This document shows positions 58,238 through 63,661 of a stretch of 64,000 nt of DNA, piece by piece. Below the pieces are notes generated by a model, which did not search any database, was not told the DNA's origin, and saw only the letters and a list, made by a program, of their open reading frames with translations. Where the stretch lies: the sequence record NC_028894.1; one strand, written 5' to 3'. The position numbers and the translations under genes are program-made. Source of the stretch: Escherichia phage vB_EcoM_VR20. Numbering within the stretch: position 1 is the stretch's first letter; each line of letters opens with the position of its first letter.

Positions 58238-60298
58238 CTACGAAAGGAATTTAGGAGGAATAGCTTCCAAATTAATACAACTAGCAAGAATACCAAGACC
58301 TTGATTGACTTTCTTCGTTACCCCAGAGGATGCAAACGATGCAAAGTCAACAGATTCTACTGGCTCTTCTGTTTCCTCGCCCTGATAAACGACAAGCTCA
58401 CCAGTTTCCATCAACACATCACCATCATAGATAACTGCATTTTCATCCAGTTGGTCCGTAGTCTGGATATCAGCTTCCAGCATTTTGACGTTCGCGTTTC
58501 CTTGATACGAAGCATCAGTAATTTTGGTAATCTTAACTACAGTCCCACGAGGAAGAATAACTTCCTGCTCGGACGGGTTGCTTGACAATTCACCAGGAAC
58601 AATTACGTTAATTAAGTCCGCCCCAGAAATTTTCCAACCAACATGCATCATTACGTGGTCGCGGCGTGCATCCGGCATATCTGGTAAAACAATTTCGTCA
58701 TCAGCCTGGAAAGATGTCCCATCACGATAGTCCTGATGAACTGCAGCCATAGCAACGTTCGCCACCCAGCCACCAAAGATAATCGGTTTAAACGACGTTG
58801 ATACATAGTTCCTGAAATAAAATAATTTAGATTTCTTAATTTTATCAAATGTAGGAACGTTTAAATATTGACCACGCCAAAGAGTTGTATTAGGCGGCAA
58901 CTTATGTCCAATTTCAAAGGCCGAATCCAATTCCTTAATTGTTTCGACAACTCTGTCTAGATTTAGGAATTCAGCTTCTTCTTCATAATATTTGCCCATC
59001 AAATAATTATTAATATCGGCATAGTTTGCTCCACAATAATCTGCAATTGCTTCTCGCTGGCCATAATGGAAACGGTTGTCAGTATACCCTGCTGTGAAAT
59101 TAAGAGTATTTTCTGATGCTTCTTCGGCAAAGTCTTTAACTGCAACACGAATGGCGCTTGTGTATTCTTTTTCCCAGAGCGAGGCTGCATAAGTGGCTGC
59201 ATCCAGGTTAGGAGGAGCATCATTCATTTTTCTTTCGATAAATGCGGCTTTGCGAAGGTTAAGAATCTCTGCACATGATTCGGCAAAAATCTGCATCTGC
59301 TTCATACTGCCAACAGGAGCACGTTTAAGTTCACGATGCATACGGTTAAAAATTGGGTCAGAGTCTTCAATACGAATTTCTTCTTTCCAAACACCATTTG
59401 CTCGCATAGCCGCATCTGCTGCGCGCATACGAGCCATAGTATTCGTTTCGGAAGGTCGAACAAAAATTTCCAGTTCTTCATAATCATCGATAAGTTCTGC
59501 CGTAGCCGGTCGACTAAACTTAGCAGCTTCTGCATCAATTTCGTCCCAGCCATCGGGCACGGAATCACTTGGAGCATACTGGGCTTGTGCAATAGCTCGG
59601 CGACTGATTTTAGTTTTCTGGGCAACAGCAGCATCGGTCTTTTTGTTTGCTGCGTCAATCAGAACTTCGGCTGCGATTTCTTGTTTGGAGACTTGTGCGC
59701 CTGTATCTTTATTAGTGAATACATCGCCAACTTTAGTTTCAACTTTTTGATATTTCTCAGGGACTGGTGGCATACCATCAACCGAAAGCAGGTCAACACC
59801 CTTTTTGTACATAATTACATAAGCGTTCTTTTTACCGAGGCCAGAAGCATTCGGAAGAACATGATAACGCCCGCTGGTTTTCATTTGAATCAGTCGATTC
59901 ATAATACGAATAACAGCTTGGTCTTGCCCTTTCATTTTTTTGGATGGGAAACGGAACAAGACTACATCAGGTTTGCCTAGTTTAATGCTTTCCCAGACTG
60001 TAACAAAAATCAGGTTAATCGCATCAAGAGGTTTTTCACCTAGACCACCCTTCAGAGGAACAGCATGGCCATGTGAAGTCCCGGAGAGCAGGAATACCTC
60101 GGCAATTGCATCGCCGCGTTTATATTGTTTAACTGTTTCTTTGCCCGTGAATTGCATCAAACGGGCCATAAGAGAATTGGTCCCAGGAACACCGAATTGC
60201 CAAACCTGTGGGACCTTGTATTTCGGATTCATATTAATGACAGGATAACCGAAGGCTTCGATATATTTGTCAAAGAGTTCATTTAATTGTTCAGACAT
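58238..60298 (-). CDS. alt: Alt, ADP-ribosyltransferase packaged in the capsid
   Basis: 686 aa; motifs shared with T4 Alt (VGDVFTNKDTGAQV, KISRRAIAQ, FYFRNFVSTS, MPxxYQ). Position after gene 54. Confidence 0.9.
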   Translation of the reverse strand: MSEQLNELFDKYIEAFGYPVINMNPKYKVPQVWQFGVPGTNSLMARLMQFTGKETVKQYKRGDAIAEVFLLSGTSHGHAVPLKGGLGEKPLDAINLIFVTVWESIKLGKPDVVLFRFPSKKMKGQDQAVIRIMNRLIQMKTSGRYHVLPNASGLGKKNAYVIMYKKGVDLLSVDGMPPVPEKYQKVETKVGDVFTNKDTGAQVSKQEIAAEVLIDAANKKTDAAVAQKTKISRRAIAQAQYAPSDSVPDGWDEIDAEAAKFSRPATAELIDDYEELEIFVRPSETNTMARMRAADAAMRANGVWKEEIRIEDSDPIFNRMHRELKRAPVGSMKQMQIFAESCAEILNLRKAAFIERKMNDAPPNLDAATYAASLWEKEYTSAIRVAVKDFAEEASENTLNFTAGYTDNRFHYGQREAIADYCGANYADINNYLMGKYYEEEAEFLNLDRVVETIKELDSAFEIGHKLPPNTTLWRGQYLNVPTFDKIKKSKLFYFRNYVSTSFKPIIFGGWVANVAMAAVHQDYRDGTSFQADDEIVLPDMPDARRDHVMMHVGWKISGADLINVIVPGELSSNPSEQEVILPRGTVVKITKITDASYQGNANVKMLEADIQTTDQLDENAVIYDGDVLMETGELVVYQGEETEEPVESVDFASFASSGVTKKVNQGLGILASCINLEAIPPKFLS

Positions 60299-60333: not shown

Positions 60334-60363
60334 AAAAAAGGGCCGAAGCCCTTTTGTTATTTT
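60334..60363. terminator. bidirectional intrinsic terminator between ligase and alt
   Basis: GGGC-CGAA-GCCC with AAAAAA upstream and TTTTGTTATTTT downstream. Confidence 0.75.
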
Positions 60364-61889
60364 AATCCAGTCTTTGACCAGTCGCCAAATACATCTTCGA
60401 ATGTGTCTGCATGGTCTTTATCGAAACGGAACCCTTTGATAATCGGCAGGAACAATGCAACCGTATTATCTTTACGAGTCTCGGAAGTCAACCAACCATT
60501 ACATTCACAGTCGGCAATCATTCCAACCAATTCACCTTTACGGGCTTTAACCATCAAGGCTTCACGGTCCATTTCATGACGCTCCTCAATCGGAATAGTA
60601 ACCCATTTTTTGGTTTTCTTATCTTTAACTTGAGTTGTGTCTTTAAAACCAGAACCACAGTTATTTGTAATCTTACCACAAGAAGAACGAAGCACAACAC
60701 CACCAATCTTATTCGGGTCTTTATCGTGCTCGTAATATCCAATGATTTCCATTGCAATGTCAATTACTTCTTTGAACTTGTACAAGTTCTTTGAGCGCTT
60801 GTTTTCCCAAATCGATGCCATGTTCTTAAGGATAATACCTTCAAGACCTTCATCCACATATTTCTTATAGATAACCTTCGCTTCATCGAGATTGTTAACA
60901 ACATGGTTTTCAATCAGAATCATGCGGTCAAAACCATGCAGCACCACGTTATCTGCAATCATCTTTTCCAGAACAGCAAAACGCACATCGTATTTCAACG
61001 GATTGAGAATCTTAACATCAGAATAGACTTCAATCAGTGGAACATAATCCCAAACCTGGAATTTCATACAAGCAGCTTCTGTTGCCGAAATAGTTCCTTT
61101 CAATGATTTGTTTGCCAGACCATTTGAAAAGGTTCTTGATTCCGCAGTTTCTTGTGCAGGGGCAATCTCATTTGAATCGTCAAAAAGGAAGCCCAAACCG
61201 TCATTCTGGGGAGCTACTTTCTGTTCATGGTATACTAACTCACCGTCAATCAAAACGCCCTCAGGATGTCTCTCACGCGCTTCACGAGTAGCTTCAATCA
61301 ATTCCTTTTTAAGGAGGTCAAGCTTGAGGTATTCGTTGCCAGCTCGGGATAACAATCGAACATCATCCAACTCATCGCCACGAACTTCTGCAAAACACCG
61401 AGCGCCGTCGGCTTTCAATTGTGCAAAGGCCGGGAACTTAATGTTCTTGGCAATACCGGCTTCATCATAGGAAGAAGCGAGCATCTGCGGTTGTTCTGGA
61501 ATTAAACCTTTCCAAACCTTATTTGCAATTGATACGGATGCCCCGCATTCCAGGTCACGCATCATCACACGGCGCAGGACTTCAACATCTGCTTTTTTAC
61601 CATCGGCAATATAGCCAGATAATTCCTCGATTGCAGCATTACCTGTTAATTTACGAGAGGCCAATGTGAATTCGATAAAGTCAAGCATATCATCGATATT
61701 CAGCATACCAAAGCTTTGAGTCGTTGTTCCAGGTTTTGGCCATTTCTTGATATAGAACTGGATGCCTTTGGAATATGTCAAACGATACACACGTTTGAGG
61801 GTTTCATTGTCAGAATACGATTCCAGAATAGCTTGTTTCTCTTTAGTAGAATCGGTTGCAGCAATTTCATTTAAAATATCTAAAATCAT
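60357..61889 (-). CDS. 30: ATP-dependent DNA ligase (gp30)
   Basis: ATG at 61889 with GAGGTG RBS (track start is GTG); MILDILNEIA..., AFAQLKADGARC (motif I KxDG) recognisable as T4 DNA ligase. Confidence 0.95.
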   Translation of the reverse strand: MILDILNEIAATDSTKEKQAILESYSDNETLKRVYRLTYSKGIQFYIKKWPKPGTTTQSFGMLNIDDMLDFIEFTLASRKLTGNAAIEELSGYIADGKKADVEVLRRVMMRDLECGASVSIANKVWKGLIPEQPQMLASSYDEAGIAKNIKFPAFAQLKADGARCFAEVRGDELDDVRLLSRAGNEYLKLDLLKKELIEATREARERHPEGVLIDGELVYHEQKVAPQNDGLGFLFDDSNEIAPAQETAESRTFSNGLANKSLKGTISATEAACMKFQVWDYVPLIEVYSDVKILNPLKYDVRFAVLEKMIADNVVLHGFDRMILIENHVVNNLDEAKVIYKKYVDEGLEGIILKNMASIWENKRSKNLYKFKEVIDIAMEIIGYYEHDKDPNKIGGVVLRSSCGKITNNCGSGFKDTTQVKDKKTKKWVTIPIEERHEMDREALMVKARKGELVGMIADCECNGWLTSETRKDNTVALFLPIIKGFRFDKDHADTFEDVFGDWSKTGLK

Positions 61890-61898
61890 AATCACCTC

Positions 61899-62177
61899 TT
61901 AGTCGTTGGCTCTATTATATGCCACATCTTCCAAAAGCAAATCCAGACGCTTATGATAAGAGAACACAAATCTCATTCGCCCATCTGGTTTAAACTTAGA
62001 CATAAAGTGAACATAGATAAACCCTTGCTCAACGCATTCACGCCAAACCGGATGGTCTTTGGCTGGGTTAATATCAAACGAGTAATCATGATTCACATGA
62101 CGAATAAACTGATTAACATGGCCATAATCCATGGTAGTAGTAGGACCGTAATCAGAAATAGTATGAACGACAAACAT
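61899..62177 (-). CDS. hypothetical protein (30.1-like)
   Basis: ATG at 62177 overlaps the upstream stop (ATGA); 92 aa. Confidence 0.5.
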   Translation of the reverse strand: MFVVHTISDYGPTTTMDYGHVNQFIRHVNHDYSFDINPAKDHPVWRECVEQGFIYVHFMSKFKPDGRMRFVFSYHKRLDLLLEDVAYNRAND

Positions 62178-63001
62178 CAATTACCCCCTTGGCCACCGGT
62201 CGGTTGATTGTACCAATATTCAATGCCAGTACCTACGCGTGGACCATATTGATATGGATATGCTGGATTATATCCAGGGGTCCATGGTTGACCTGGTTGC
62301 CAGCCTTGCTGCATTTGTTGTTGAAGACGTCGAGTTTCACGAAACAGTTCGTCCAGTTTACGGAGTTCATCAGGGGTGAATTCTGGTTTGACTGGTTCAT
62401 CTTTGTGTTTCAGTTTAAGCTGCCCAGCTACATCGTCCCAATTAAAAACTTTGGAAGCTGTTTTAGGAATAGCATTACGTTCGCCACGGGCCATCCAATA
62501 AACCGGGACTTCAAGGATTTCACTCGCATGGTCGCAATGGTGTGCAAGGTCATCAATATAACAAACGACATTATATTTGGTCTTCGCTTTCTGGAATAAC
62601 TCTTCTTTAGAGGCTGTATGGCCGCACATCATCACTTCTTTAAATGCACCAGGGAACAAAGCATTCAGGTTGAATTGACGATTCAGACGGGCGTCAATGG
62701 AATCACCCAGAGCCGTAACAGCCACAAAATCATATTGCTCTTTGAGGTTATTAATAACCCTTAACGCATCTGCGTAAGGAGACAAATAACGAATAAAATC
62801 TGAACAGTTATATTTCTCAATCAACTGTGCTCCCAACTCTTCATCACAATTGAACAGTTTACCAGGGGTCACAAATTTTTCATCCTGAATCATCTTAAGG
62901 ATATGTTCCAGGGGTAAATTATATTTTTGGGCGAAATAAGGCAAGCCTGACTGCCATGACAAACATACGCCATCAATATCTGTTAAAATAACGGGTTTCA
63001 T
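62177..63001 (-). CDS. HAD-superfamily hydrolase-like protein with Q/P/Y/G-rich C-terminal tail (30.2-like)
   Basis: N-terminal DIDGV (HAD motif I pattern); C-terminal low-complexity tail QQQMQQGWQPGQPWTPGYNPAYPYQYGP. Confidence 0.6.
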   Translation of the reverse strand: MKPVILTDIDGVCLSWQSGLPYFAQKYNLPLEHILKMIQDEKFVTPGKLFNCDEELGAQLIEKYNCSDFIRYLSPYADALRVINNLKEQYDFVAVTALGDSIDARLNRQFNLNALFPGAFKEVMMCGHTASKEELFQKAKTKYNVVCYIDDLAHHCDHASEILEVPVYWMARGERNAIPKTASKVFNWDDVAGQLKLKHKDEPVKPEFTPDELRKLDELFRETRRLQQQMQQGWQPGQPWTPGYNPAYPYQYGPRVGTGIEYWYNQPTGGQGGN

Positions 63002-63456
63002 AATGCATCTCTCAATTGGTTAAGTATGTCAATAAATTCTTGTTCAGTCAATATTGTATCATGAACAGTAAGGTGGCTCGCCATCGAATGCTTTAAAACT
63101 TTGCCCTTTGTAGCTTGTAATGCGTCGCGGAATCCTTTGTTTTGGAGCGCTGCTTCAAAATATGCATTTGTATACAACTCTTTCCATGATGTAGAGTATC
63201 TTGAAAAGGGAATTCCAAGCCAGAAAAGCGTCCCACGGTCCGCAGCTCTAGCATAAGCTCTTCCACTTTGCTGGGCGGCCAATCCGGACATCCCAAATAT
63301 ACGTTTTTGTTGTTCACAATTTCTCACCTTACACCCTTGCAGGAAGCCTTCAAGACCTCCAAACTGGATGCCCTCCATAACAAAAGGCCATTTAGCAAAG
63401 TTACTTAATGCGCATGATGGCCATGGGAAATTGCTTCTGATTTCTAACTCAGACAT
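62998..63456 (-). CDS. hypothetical protein, possibly NADAR/YbiA-like (30.3-like)
   Basis: ATG at 63456 (track start is GTG); LSNF...EG..F.....EGFLQGCK pattern resembles NADAR domains; unverified. Confidence 0.45.
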   Translation of the reverse strand: MSELEIRSNFPWPSCALSNFAKWPFVMEGIQFGGLEGFLQGCKVRNCEQQKRIFGMSGLAAQQSGRAYARAADRGTLFWLGIPFSRYSTSWKELYTNAYFEAALQNKGFRDALQATKGKVLKHSMASHLTVHDTILTEQEFIDILNQLRDAL

Positions 63457-63661
63457 CTTTGACACTTACTACATCAACGTTTGCCCAATGACCATAACCA
63501 GGTAGACGGTCTTTAATAGATAATCCACCGTCAGATTTCAGCATTTTAATTGTTTTAGTATATGGTTCAATATTTCGGGCCCATGGACTCACGTCAGTTA
63601 CGCGATAAGTAACTTCAACCATTTCTGTGCCCAAAATTTTCTGAATCAGTTTCTTAAACAT
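63449..63661 (-). CDS. small hypothetical protein
   Basis: ATG at 63661; 70 aa. Confidence 0.45.
   Translation of the reverse strand: MFKKLIQKILGTEMVEVTYRVTDVSPWARNIEPYTKTIKMLKSDGGLSIKDRLPGYGHWANVDVVSVKDV

What the first reader, a model, noticed from the sequence alone, without database searches (positions are those of the whole stretch)
62177..63001. HAD-like hydrolase fused to a Q/P/Y/G-rich low-complexity tail
The N-terminus carries the HAD motif I pattern (ILTDIDGV), but the last roughly 50 residues are a Gln/Pro/Tyr/Gly-rich tract (QQQMQQGWQPGQPWTPGYNPAYPYQYGPRVGTGIEYWYNQPTGGQGGN). Such a tail is unusual on a nucleotide-metabolism-type enzyme and might mediate multivalent interactions or localisation.
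Basis: seen in the sequence. Interest (0 to 1): 0.4.

Follow-up and report, generated by a model that had tools for sequence, protein, structure and literature searches.

The report
T4 gp30.2-type phosphatase with selected tail
This is the counterpart, in a T4-like coliphage, of the uncharacterised T4 gene 30.2: a HAD-type phosphatase whose odd Trp/Pro/Tyr/Gln/Gly-rich tail is real, translated, under selection and carries a conserved short peptide motif, so it looks like a flexible docking arm; its partner is not known.

Summary
The ORF at 62177..63001 (-), 274 aa, exists as described. The window is a Gaprivervirus (T4-like) genome segment. The ORF is the orthologue of T4 gene 30.2 and sits in T4 order: alt, DNA ligase, 30.1, 30.2, 30.3/AdfN.

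Residues 1-199 fold as a C1-capped HAD hydrolase with all four catalytic motifs conserved. The closest solved folds are the cytosolic 5'(3')-deoxyribonucleotidases, but no curated sequence family reaches threshold.

The tail is not a frameshift artefact:
- It is kept in nine sequenced relatives, with in-frame indels only.
- Its dN/dS (about 0 to 0.08) is as low as in the core.
- T4 and Klebsiella/Citrobacter phage orthologues carry a comparable tail.

The tail has four parts: a linker, a confidently predicted helix (210-231), a disordered Trp/Pro-rich spacer, and a conserved near-C-terminal motif G(T)GIEY[LW]xxQPT. Gln/Gly/Tyr richness is specific to Gaprivervirus; Trp/Pro enrichment is family-wide. 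A tail profile found nothing outside gp30.2 in 1.84 billion proteins.

Long tails occur only where gene 30.1 (DUF3045) follows. Two lineages have 30.2 fused to a 30.1-like domain and lack the tail. This suggests, but does not prove, that the tail tethers gp30.1. Function and substrate are unknown. Modest interest.

The parts
62177..63001 (-). Whole ORF, 274 aa plus stop: orthologue of T4 gene 30.2 (PHROG 420).
   Evidence: ORF list. PHROG 420 at E 2e-78 over residues 1-268. tblastn: 66% identity to T4 over residues 1-270 and 99.3% to Escherichia virus TH44. T4 synteny.
62405..63001 (-). HAD hydrolase core with C1 helical cap, residues 1-199. Catalytic residues are D8 and D10 (motif I), T96 (II), K132 (III) and D150/D151 (IV).
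   Evidence: D8, D10, K132, D150 and D151 are invariant and T96 is at least 90% conserved in 113 sequences. AlphaFold pLDDT above 90. Foldseek against PDB: cdN 2jao at E 3e-8, 2i7d, YfnB and L-2-haloacid dehalogenases. Pfam HAD_2 reaches only 14.1 bits against a cutoff of 23.8.
62966..62980 (-). HAD motif I, D8-I-D10-G-V12 (nucleophile and general acid/base aspartates).
   Evidence: Read directly from the sequence. Both aspartates are invariant. Aligns to the DMDGV motif of mouse cdN.
62375..62404 (-). Linker, residues 200-209 (KDEPVKPEFT); lower-confidence stretch between the core and the tail helix.
   Evidence: AlphaFold block pLDDT about 70. Variable in alignments.
62309..62374 (-). Amphipathic helix, residues 210-231 (PDELRKLDELFRETRRLQQQMQ); the first element of the tail.
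   Evidence: AlphaFold helix 210-231 with block pLDDT 86-92. By eye, many of the long-tailed homologues listed show an amphipathic-looking segment here; structure was predicted only for the window protein.
62234..62308 (-). Disordered Trp/Pro/Tyr/Gln/Gly-rich spacer, residues 232-256. It contains W240-T-P242, the local form of the widespread W-x-(x)-P motif, and the NPAYPYQY unit that is duplicated in phage P479.
   Evidence: pLDDT 36-63. Composition. A W[KRVT]xP-type motif lies 27-73 residues (mostly 38-52) past the core end in 30 of 55 long tails. In-frame duplication and deletions in relatives. dN/dS about 0 to 0.08.
62198..62233 (-). Conserved near-C-terminal peptide motif G257-T-G-I-E-Y-W-Y-N-Q-P-T268. 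The family consensus is G(T)GIEY[LW]xxQPT.
   Evidence: In the alignment of 15 divergent tails, the Glu is invariant and Y, P and T are at least 90% conserved, while mean column identity is 31%. Also seen. A DNA scan for GIEYLxxQPT in IMG/VR gave 6 hits, all inside 30.2 genes. The tail profile found no protein outside the family.
62177..62197 (-). Last six codons (GGQGGN) plus stop. They double as the ribosome-binding site of gene 30.1: AAGGGGG lies 5 nt before the 30.1 ATG, which overlaps the TGA stop.
   Evidence: Sequence read. T4 has CAAGGAG at the same place.
61899..62177 (-). Gene 30.1 (DUF3045, 92 aa), translationally coupled downstream neighbour and candidate partner of the tail.
   Evidence: Pfam DUF3045 at E 6e-17. 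Present directly downstream of every Trp/Pro-rich long-tailed 30.2 in the IMG/VR loci. Fused to the 30.2 core in P0022 and in Tegunavirus.
62998..63465 (-). Gene 30.3 / AdfN (NADAR, anti-DarT factor), the upstream neighbour. Its stop overlaps the 30.2 start (ATGA).
   Evidence: Pfam Phage_30_3 at E 5e-64. Function of T4 gp30.3 described in PMC11825919. Overlap read.

Best explanation
The ORF is the Gaprivervirus orthologue of bacteriophage T4 gene 30.2. Residues 1-199 form a Mg-dependent phospho-monoesterase of the HAD superfamily with a C1 helical cap. This type acts on small molecules, and the closest solved folds are the 5'(3')-deoxyribonucleotidases (inferred: a nucleotide-like substrate). 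Residues 200-274 are a family-specific C-terminal extension made of a linker, an amphipathic helix, an intrinsically disordered Trp/Pro-rich spacer, and a short conserved peptide, G(T)GIEY[LW]xxQPT, about ten residues from the end. The last codons also encode the ribosome-binding site of the next gene.

Shown: the extension is translated in this frame, is kept by purifying selection, and occurs only in gp30.2 proteins.

Inferred: it works as a flexible arm that presents a short linear docking motif and so tethers the phosphatase to a partner protein. It is unlikely to act as a generic sticky low-complexity region. The best, still weak, candidate partner is the co-translated neighbour gp30.1 (DUF3045), because other lineages have the two fused into one polypeptide and then lack the tail.
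For: Identity:
- PHROG 420 at E 2e-78.
- 66% identity to T4 gp30.2 over 270 residues, and 1438 phage records with a match.
- T4 gene order 30.3, 30.2, 30.1, ligase, alt.

Enzyme:
- D8, D10, K132, D150 and D151 invariant and T96 nearly so in 113 sequences.
- AlphaFold core pLDDT above 90.
- Foldseek top hits are cdN 2jao and 2i7d plus other C1-cap HADs. BFVD hits are many phage '5' nucleotidase' HADs.
- W16 aligns with the Phe at the equivalent position after motif I in cdN.

Tail is real and selected:
- Nine Gaprivervirus relatives at 91-98% nucleotide identity keep the frame. The only length changes are -9, -6 and +24 nt.
- For tail residues 232-274, dS is 0.11-0.69 and dN is 0-0.037, the same regime as the core.
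- GC3 is 0.28, the phage's own codon style.

Motif architecture:
- Conserved W-x-x-P and GIEY[LW]xxQPT in orthologues only 45-55% identical in the core.
- pLDDT below 50 around the motif in the monomer model, as expected for a motif that folds on binding.
- The tail profile hits only a 30.2 protein among 1.84e9 representatives.

Link to 30.1:
- In the IMG/VR loci, every Trp/Pro-rich long tail (47 aa or more) is followed at once by 30.1. Loci without 30.1 have tails of 33 aa or less, apart from L083 and the Tegunavirus fusions.
- A near-C-terminal aromatic motif is present in 19 of 28 distinct tails with 30.1 and in 0 of 36 without.
- P0022 is the 30.2 core plus DUF3045 (Pfam E 8e-15).
- Tegunavirus 30.2 carries a C-terminal domain that matches the 30.1 profile end to end (21.5 bits; hhalign E 5e-5), and no separate 30.1 was detected there by my profile.
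Against: - No experiment or publication on gp30.2 was found: 0 papers for 'gp30.2'.
- No curated family (Pfam, NCBIfam, PADLOC) reaches threshold, so the substrate is a guess.
- The tail/30.1 co-occurrence is confounded by phylogeny, and the motifs were defined after looking at the data.
- Mosigvirus phages keep a 30.1 nearly identical to the window's but have an 18-residue tail. That tail may retain the motif core (AVEWIARG), but the match is short.
- 30.1 is well conserved between lineages whose tails are completely different. That is not what a tight tail/30.1 interface predicts.
- The P0022 fusion rests on one 1378-bp contig, and its closest relative L029 has two separate ORFs.
- A complex prediction could not be run.
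- The helix 210-231 could equally be an oligomerisation element.
Confidence: 0.5

Rival explanations
1. The tail is an artefact: a frameshift or sequencing error has run the reading frame into non-coding or out-of-frame sequence.
For: Low-complexity composition. An antisense ORF (62189..62599, +) also stays open over the same DNA.
Against: The same tail is found in nine independently sequenced relatives with in-frame indels only. dN/dS is about 0 to 0.08. T4 and Klebsiella/Citrobacter phage orthologues have a comparable tail with shared motifs. The other frames of the tail DNA are full of stops. The 90%-identity cluster P0001 holds 99 member sequences.
Confidence: 0.01
2. The tail is a tolerated, essentially functionless low-complexity appendage. 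It is kept only because its 3' end holds the ribosome-binding site of 30.1 and because nothing selects against it.
For: Tails differ completely between genera and are absent from about half of the family. The last codons do carry the 30.1 Shine-Dalgarno sequence. Slippage-type duplication in P479.
Against: Synonymous change is 10-40 times more frequent than non-synonymous change across the whole tail, not only at the RBS. The GIEY[LW]xxQPT motif is conserved among orthologues about 50% identical. An RBS needs about 8 nt, not about 250.
Confidence: 0.1
3. One reading: the Q/G/Y/P-rich region is a prion-like, multivalent 'sticker' domain that drives self-association or condensate formation and concentrates the enzyme at a site in the infected cell.
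For: Composition of the Gaprivervirus tail (20% Q, 20% G, 12% Y, 14% P). Predicted disorder. Aromatic-Pro repeats in the window and T4 tails.
Against: Q, G and Y are not enriched in the tails of the family as a whole (ratios 1.16, 1.29 and 0.89 against the core). Only W, P and T are enriched. What is conserved is a specific 10-12 residue motif, not composition. The tail is short, about 40 disordered residues.
Confidence: 0.12
4. The tail targets a host protein, or another phage protein that is not gp30.1. It evolves fast because the target differs or because of an arms race.
For: Tail classes turn over much faster than the core or 30.1. Short linear motifs in disordered viral tails typically bind cellular hubs (general knowledge). 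Mosigvirus keeps 30.1 with almost no tail.
Against: Tail class does not track host genus: E. coli phages carry at least two classes, and class A is shared by Escherichia, Klebsiella and Citrobacter phages. No similar motif was found on any other protein. No candidate target was identified.
Confidence: 0.2
5. The tail is autoregulatory or structural in cis or in a homo-oligomer. The helix and the C-terminal motif would pack on the HAD core or on a neighbouring subunit and gate the active site.
For: Helix 210-231 is placed with pLDDT 86-92. cdN/mdN-type HADs are dimers (general knowledge).
Against: The motif region has pLDDT below 50 in all five monomer models despite 20 or more motif-bearing sequences in the alignment. 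Half of the family works without any tail.
Confidence: 0.07

Closest known systems
Bacteriophage T4 gp30.2 (hypothetical protein, PHROG 420)
   Same: Orthologue: 66% identity over 270 of 274 residues, the same place between 30.3 and 30.1/ligase, and the same build of HAD core, helix, aromatic/Pro-rich tail and GGIEYLYNRPT motif.
   Different: The T4 spacer is N/P/Y/H-rich, not Q/G-rich. DNA similarity stops at nt 574, where the tail begins. T4 gp30.2 itself has no known function.
Mammalian cytosolic and mitochondrial 5'(3')-deoxyribonucleotidases (cdN/mdN, NT5C family; PDB 2jao, 2i7d, 1q92)
   Same: Best structural matches to the core: C1-cap HAD fold, DxDGV motif I, and an aromatic residue eight positions after the nucleophile (W16 here, Phe in cdN).
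   Different: Only 15-17% identity and TM 0.64-0.68 on the target. The Pfam NT5C model is not matched. cdN/mdN have no C-terminal extension. Activity is untested here.
Phage dNMP phosphatases that reshape nucleotide pools, e.g. Bacillus phage PBS1 Dtm (dTMP phosphatase)
   Same: Dtm is a phage-encoded protein with an AlphaFold model like mitochondrial deoxyribonucleotidase and low sequence identity to it. It shows that phages use this fold to remove a chosen dNMP (PMC12697855).
   Different: No homology to Dtm was tested or shown. T4-like phages have hmC DNA, and no dNMP that would need removing is known. Dtm is not described as having such a tail.
Natural 30.2-30.1 fusion proteins (Tegunavirus phiR1-RT/TG1 gp30.2, 312 aa; metagenomic P0022, 302 aa)
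   Same: Same HAD core (about 50-67% identity) and same locus.
   Different: In place of the Trp/Pro-rich tail they carry a covalently attached DUF3045-like domain. In the window the two are separate, translationally coupled genes.

Membership tests
HAD (haloacid dehalogenase-like) hydrolase superfamily | Motif I DxDx[TV], with nucleophile Asp and Asp+2 | tested here: met
   D8-I-D10-G-V. Both Asp residues are invariant in 113 sequences.
HAD (haloacid dehalogenase-like) hydrolase superfamily | Motif II Ser/Thr, motif III Lys/Arg, and motif IV acidic pair (DD) | tested here: met
   T96 is at least 90% conserved. K132, D150 and D151 are invariant.
HAD (haloacid dehalogenase-like) hydrolase superfamily | Rossmann-like core fold with a cap inserted after motif I (C1 cap) | tested here: met
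   AlphaFold core pLDDT above 90 with a helical insert at residues 16-86. 104 PDB matches at E up to 1e-3; all 50 listed are HAD-fold proteins, including one design built on a HAD scaffold.
HAD (haloacid dehalogenase-like) hydrolase superfamily | Match to a curated sequence model above its threshold (Pfam HAD_2 or Hydrolase; NCBIfam) | tested here: not met
   HAD_2 scores 14.1 bits against a cutoff of 23.8. No NCBIfam hit. Membership therefore rests on motifs and fold.
5'(3')-deoxyribonucleotidase family (NT5C, Pfam PF06941) | Sequence match to the family model | tested here: not met
   No PF06941 hit at E up to 0.1. phmmer and profile searches against PDB give cdN only at E 0.25.
5'(3')-deoxyribonucleotidase family (NT5C, Pfam PF06941) | Closest fold, and a base-stacking aromatic residue after motif I | tested here: inconclusive
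   cdN is the top Foldseek hit, but other C1-cap HADs score almost the same. Invariant W16 aligns with the cdN Phe.
5'(3')-deoxyribonucleotidase family (NT5C, Pfam PF06941) | dNMP phosphatase activity | not testable with these tools
   Needs an enzyme assay.
T4 gp30.2 family (PHROG 420) | Full-length profile match | tested here: met
   phrog_420 at E 2e-78, covering residues 1-268 of 274.
T4 gp30.2 family (PHROG 420) | Conserved position between 30.3 and 30.1/DNA ligase in T4-like genomes | tested here: met
   Window order, compared with T4 and SP18, VR7 and VR26.
Prion-like / condensate-forming low-complexity domain | Long (60 aa or more) Q/N/G/S/Y-rich disordered region whose composition, not its sequence, is conserved | tested here: not met
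   The disordered part is about 40 aa. Q/G/Y enrichment is not shared by the family. What is conserved is a specific motif.

The most novel reading that the evidence does not exclude
gp30.2 and gp30.1 form a two-part module found in a subset of T4-like phages. The disordered tail of the phosphatase carries a short linear motif that holds the small DUF3045 protein, or through it a third component, next to the active site. The module could work with the translationally coupled neighbour AdfN (gp30.3) in counter-defence. The authors of PMC11825919 suspect that AdfN needs an additional T-even protein.
Probability: 0.15. Interest if true: 0.55.

Novelty: new member of a known kind. Interest (0 to 1): 0.3.

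Why it matters
Gene 30.2 is present in well over a thousand sequenced T4-like phages, including T4 itself, yet has no assigned function. This analysis gives three testable handles:
- An intact HAD phosphatase active site with a strongly conserved cap, which implies a specific small substrate.
- A selected, disordered tail with a defined 12-residue motif that can be mutated or used as bait.
- Gene-fusion evidence pointing to gp30.1 as a functional partner.

Its immediate, translationally coupled neighbour is the anti-DarT factor AdfN. Clarifying 30.2 and 30.1 could therefore show whether this block is a counter-defence or nucleotide-pool module. None of this is surprising enough to change how phage biology is viewed; it is a useful annotation upgrade.

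Tried and rejected
1. Frameshift origin of the tail: rejected.
2. Class F tails (...WTWSINC) as frame-shifted versions of class A tails: the other frames are full of stops and do not match.
3. Tail as a portable module on other proteins. The regex scan of the window found only this ORF. The IMG/VR DNA scan gave 6 hits, all in 30.2 genes. The tail-profile search of 1.84e9 proteins gave one hit, a 30.2 protein.
4. Tandem repeat at the DNA level in the window's tail: none.
6. Learning the role of 30.1 from its fold. The AlphaFold model has pLDDT 80.7, but there is no significant PDB match; the best E is 0.08. My passing idea that DUF3045 is a degenerate GIY-YIG domain got no support.
7. Defence and anti-defence libraries: no PADLOC hit for 30.2 or 30.1.
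8. Literature: 'gp30.2' appears in 0 papers. Broader searches found only AdfN/30.3 and phage dTMP phosphatases. The Thanatos paper had nothing on the homologue.
9. 30.3/AdfN as the tail's partner: unlikely, because the tail-bearing Klebsiella, Citrobacter and Enterobacter phage loci have no 30.3 within 4 kb.
10. The weak PHROG hits to polynucleotide kinase and 'phosphoheptose isomerase' were read as generic HAD similarity. The large C1 cap argues against a macromolecular (DNA-end) substrate.
Full report
**Observation**

The ORF at 62177..63001 on the minus strand is 274 aa with an ATG start. It reads MKPVILTDIDGV... at the N-terminus and ends with the quoted Q/P/Y/G-rich stretch.
- The last 49 residues are 20% Q, 20% G, 14% P, 12% Y and 6% W. 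Their entropy is 3.25 bits, against 3.99 on average in the core.
- No other ORF of at least 60 aa in the 64-kb window has a 40-residue stretch nearly as rich in W/P/Y/G/Q: 75% here, 50% for the runner-up.

**Context**

The neighbours are Alt (58238..60298), an ATP-dependent DNA ligase (60357..61895), a DUF3045 protein (61899..62177) and a Phage_30_3/NADAR protein (62998..63465), all on the minus strand. This is the T4 order alt, 30, 30.1, 30.2, 30.3.
- The gene is 97.9% identical in DNA and 99.3% in protein to Escherichia virus TH44. It is 91-98% identical in DNA to other members of the genus Gaprivervirus.
- It is 66% identical in protein to T4 gp30.2 over residues 1-270. It matches PHROG 420, 'unknown function', at E 2e-78.
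- Its start overlaps the stop of 30.3 (ATGA). Its stop overlaps the start of 30.1 (TGATG).
- T4 gp30.3 is AdfN, an anti-DarT NADAR enzyme (PMC11825919).
- I found no publication on gp30.2 itself.

**The enzyme domain**

Across 113 family members, D8, D10, K132, D150 and D151 are invariant and T96 is nearly so. These are HAD motifs I to IV.
- AlphaFold2, run with this alignment, gives pLDDT above 90 for residues 1-199, with a helical cap inserted after motif I.
- Foldseek against the PDB puts mouse and human cytosolic 5'(3')-deoxyribonucleotidase at or near the top (2jao at E 3e-8; 2i7d at TM 0.63-0.68). Other C1-cap HADs follow closely: YfnB, L-2-haloacid dehalogenases and NANP.
- In BFVD, beyond four closer gp30.2-like relatives and mostly unnamed proteins, the named matches are chiefly phage HADs labelled 5' nucleotidase.
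- At the sequence level nothing curated reaches threshold. Pfam HAD_2 scores 14.1 bits against a cutoff of 23.8, NCBIfam gives no hit, and PDB sequence searches give E 0.25.
- Invariant W16 aligns with the Phe eight residues after the nucleophile in cdN. From my own knowledge of cdN/mdN, that position stacks on the base.

I conclude that this is an active HAD phospho-monoesterase for a small, probably nucleotide-like substrate. I do not file it as an NT5C family member. A precedent for phages using this fold on dNMPs is PBS1 Dtm (PMC12697855).

**The tail is real and selected**

Nine Gaprivervirus relatives keep the frame through the tail. The only length differences are in frame:
- loss of QQM (-9 nt);
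- loss of two residues before VGTG (-6 nt);
- a tandem duplication of NPAYPYQY in phage P479 (+24 nt).

Nei-Gojobori counts for tail residues 232-274 give dS 0.11-0.69 with dN 0-0.037, which is indistinguishable from the core. Third-position GC is 0.28, the phage's own codon style. The frameshift/artefact explanation is excluded.

**Anatomy of the tail**

AlphaFold places a helix at 210-231 with block pLDDT 86-92. It leaves residues 232-274 disordered, at pLDDT 36-63.

Of 116 cluster representatives, about half end within about 45 residues of the core (most within about 20); these are the Acinetobacter, Aeromonas, Serratia, KP15/RB43-like and similar phages. Fifty-five have tails of 45 aa or more.
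- Over those 55, the distal tail is enriched 3.3-fold in Trp, 3.0-fold in Pro and 2.2-fold in Thr relative to the core. Gln (1.16), Gly (1.29) and Tyr (0.89) are not enriched.
- Two motifs recur. A W-[KRVT]-x-P element lies 27-73 residues (mostly 38-52) after the core in 30 of 55 tails.
- In one large class (T4, Gaprivervirus, and Klebsiella, Enterobacter and Citrobacter phages) there is G(T)GIEY[LW]xxQPT about ten residues from the end. In 15 tails with 31% mean column identity, the Glu is invariant and Y, P and T are at least 90% conserved.
- Other classes end in L[RK]A[YS][YF] or other aromatic peptides.
- The very last codons (CAA GGG GGT AAT TGA) contain the Shine-Dalgarno sequence of 30.1. 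T4 has CAAGGAG at the same spot. This partly explains the terminal Q-G-G.

**Is the tail a portable module?**

No.
- A regex scan of the window found the motif only here.
- A degenerate DNA scan of IMG/VR for GIEYLxxQPT gave six hits, all inside 30.2 genes.
- A profile of 15 tails searched against 1.84 billion representative proteins returned a single significant hit, itself a 30.2 protein.

**Link to gene 30.1**

In the IMG/VR loci, each Trp/Pro-rich tail of 47 aa or more is followed at once by a 30.1 homologue, at distances of -49 to +10 nt.
- Loci without 30.1 have tails of 33 aa or less. The exceptions are one unrelated 80-aa tail (L083) and the Tegunavirus proteins.
- The Tegunavirus proteins (phiR1-RT, TG1; 312 aa) carry a C-terminal domain in place of the tail. 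It matches my 30.1 profile end to end (hmmsearch 21.5 bits; hhalign E 5e-5 over 72 columns). My 30.1 profile detected no separate 30.1 gene in those loci; the 79-aa ORF directly downstream of 30.2 in TG1 was not examined further.
- A second fusion, P0022, has a Pfam-significant DUF3045 domain after the HAD core. It rests on one short contig, and its nearest relative has two overlapping ORFs.

Gene fusions of this kind are a classical sign that two proteins act together. The absence of the tail in the fusions fits a model in which the tail is the non-covalent tether.

The evidence against is substantial:
- The co-occurrence is phylogenetically confounded.
- My motif-versus-30.1 count (19 of 28 against 0 of 36) used motifs defined after looking at the data.
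- Mosigvirus phages keep a nearly identical 30.1 with only an 18-residue tail. Its end (AVEWIARG) may retain the motif core, and the DNA just before the 30.1 start is alignable with the Gaprivervirus sequence.
- 30.1 is far better conserved between lineages than the tails are.

I could not run a complex prediction. The fold of 30.1 (AlphaFold pLDDT 80.7) has no significant PDB match.

**Verdict**

The finding is an orthologue of the uncharacterised T4 gp30.2: a HAD phosphatase with a family-specific, selected, mostly disordered C-terminal arm that carries short conserved motifs.
- The most likely role of the arm is tethered docking to a partner. gp30.1 is the leading candidate (about 0.25). 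An unknown host or phage partner is about 0.2.
- Self-association, autoregulation and no function are less likely. An artefact is excluded.
- This is a new member of a known kind. It is of modest interest (0.3) and offers clear, cheap experiments.

Noticed in passing
window 62998..63465 (-): Full-length gp30.3/AdfN homologue (Pfam Phage_30_3 at E 5e-64). In T4 this NADAR enzyme neutralises the DarTG1 defence, and RB69 is sensitive because its copy lacks the last 15 residues (PMC11825919). The Pfam match runs to profile position 138 of 138 (protein residues 15-153 of 155), so the C-terminus appears intact and the phage is probably DarTG1-resistant. The listed GTG start may lie a few codons too far upstream.
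   Followed up: partly
window 61899..62177 (-); loci L045, L082; proteins P0022, P0063, P0066: Gene 30.1 (DUF3045) is fused to the C-terminus of the 30.2 HAD core in Tegunavirus (Yersinia phages phiR1-RT and TG1) and in one metagenomic contig. The DUF3045 AlphaFold model (beta-beta-alpha-alpha-beta-beta-alpha, pLDDT 80.7) has no significant PDB fold match.
   Followed up: yes
window 62177..62191 (-): The last codons of 30.2 (CAA GGG GGT AAT TGA) are at the same time the Shine-Dalgarno sequence (AAGGGGG) of 30.1, whose ATG overlaps the stop. T4 has CAAGGAG in the same place, so the terminal Q-G-G/A residues are partly dictated by the RBS.
   Followed up: yes
locus L007 (Escherichia phage P479), tail of its 30.2: An in-frame 24-nt tandem duplication doubles the unit NPAYPYQY. 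PSD2001 and MN01 lack QQM, and VR7 lacks two residues before VGTG. The spacer changes length by slippage while the flanking motifs stay fixed.
   Followed up: partly
loci L017 and L018 (T-even-like IMG/VR genomes): A T4-type tail in which GGIEYLYNRPT is replaced by GDAGYFNRLT. This is a degenerate or re-written version of the conserved motif within otherwise near-identical proteins.
   Followed up: no
loci L019-L024 (212-aa 30.2, RB69-like): These phages have a 30.1 almost identical to the window's, but a 30.2 only 73% identical whose tail is cut down to 18 residues (…AAVEWIARG). This implies a mosaic/recombination boundary between 30.2 and 30.1, and it is a natural 'tail-less' experiment.
   Followed up: partly
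window 62189..62599 (+): A 136-aa antisense ORF lies over the tail-coding DNA. It is most likely a by-product of the stop-poor complement of G/P/Q/W codons. Selection acts on the minus-strand frame (dN/dS).
   Followed up: partly
window 60357..61895 (-): The DNA ligase ORF is listed with a GTG start and 512 aa, whereas the annotated T4 ligase CDS spans 1464 nt (487 codons). The true start is probably one of the ATG codons just downstream (VIMILD...).
   Followed up: no
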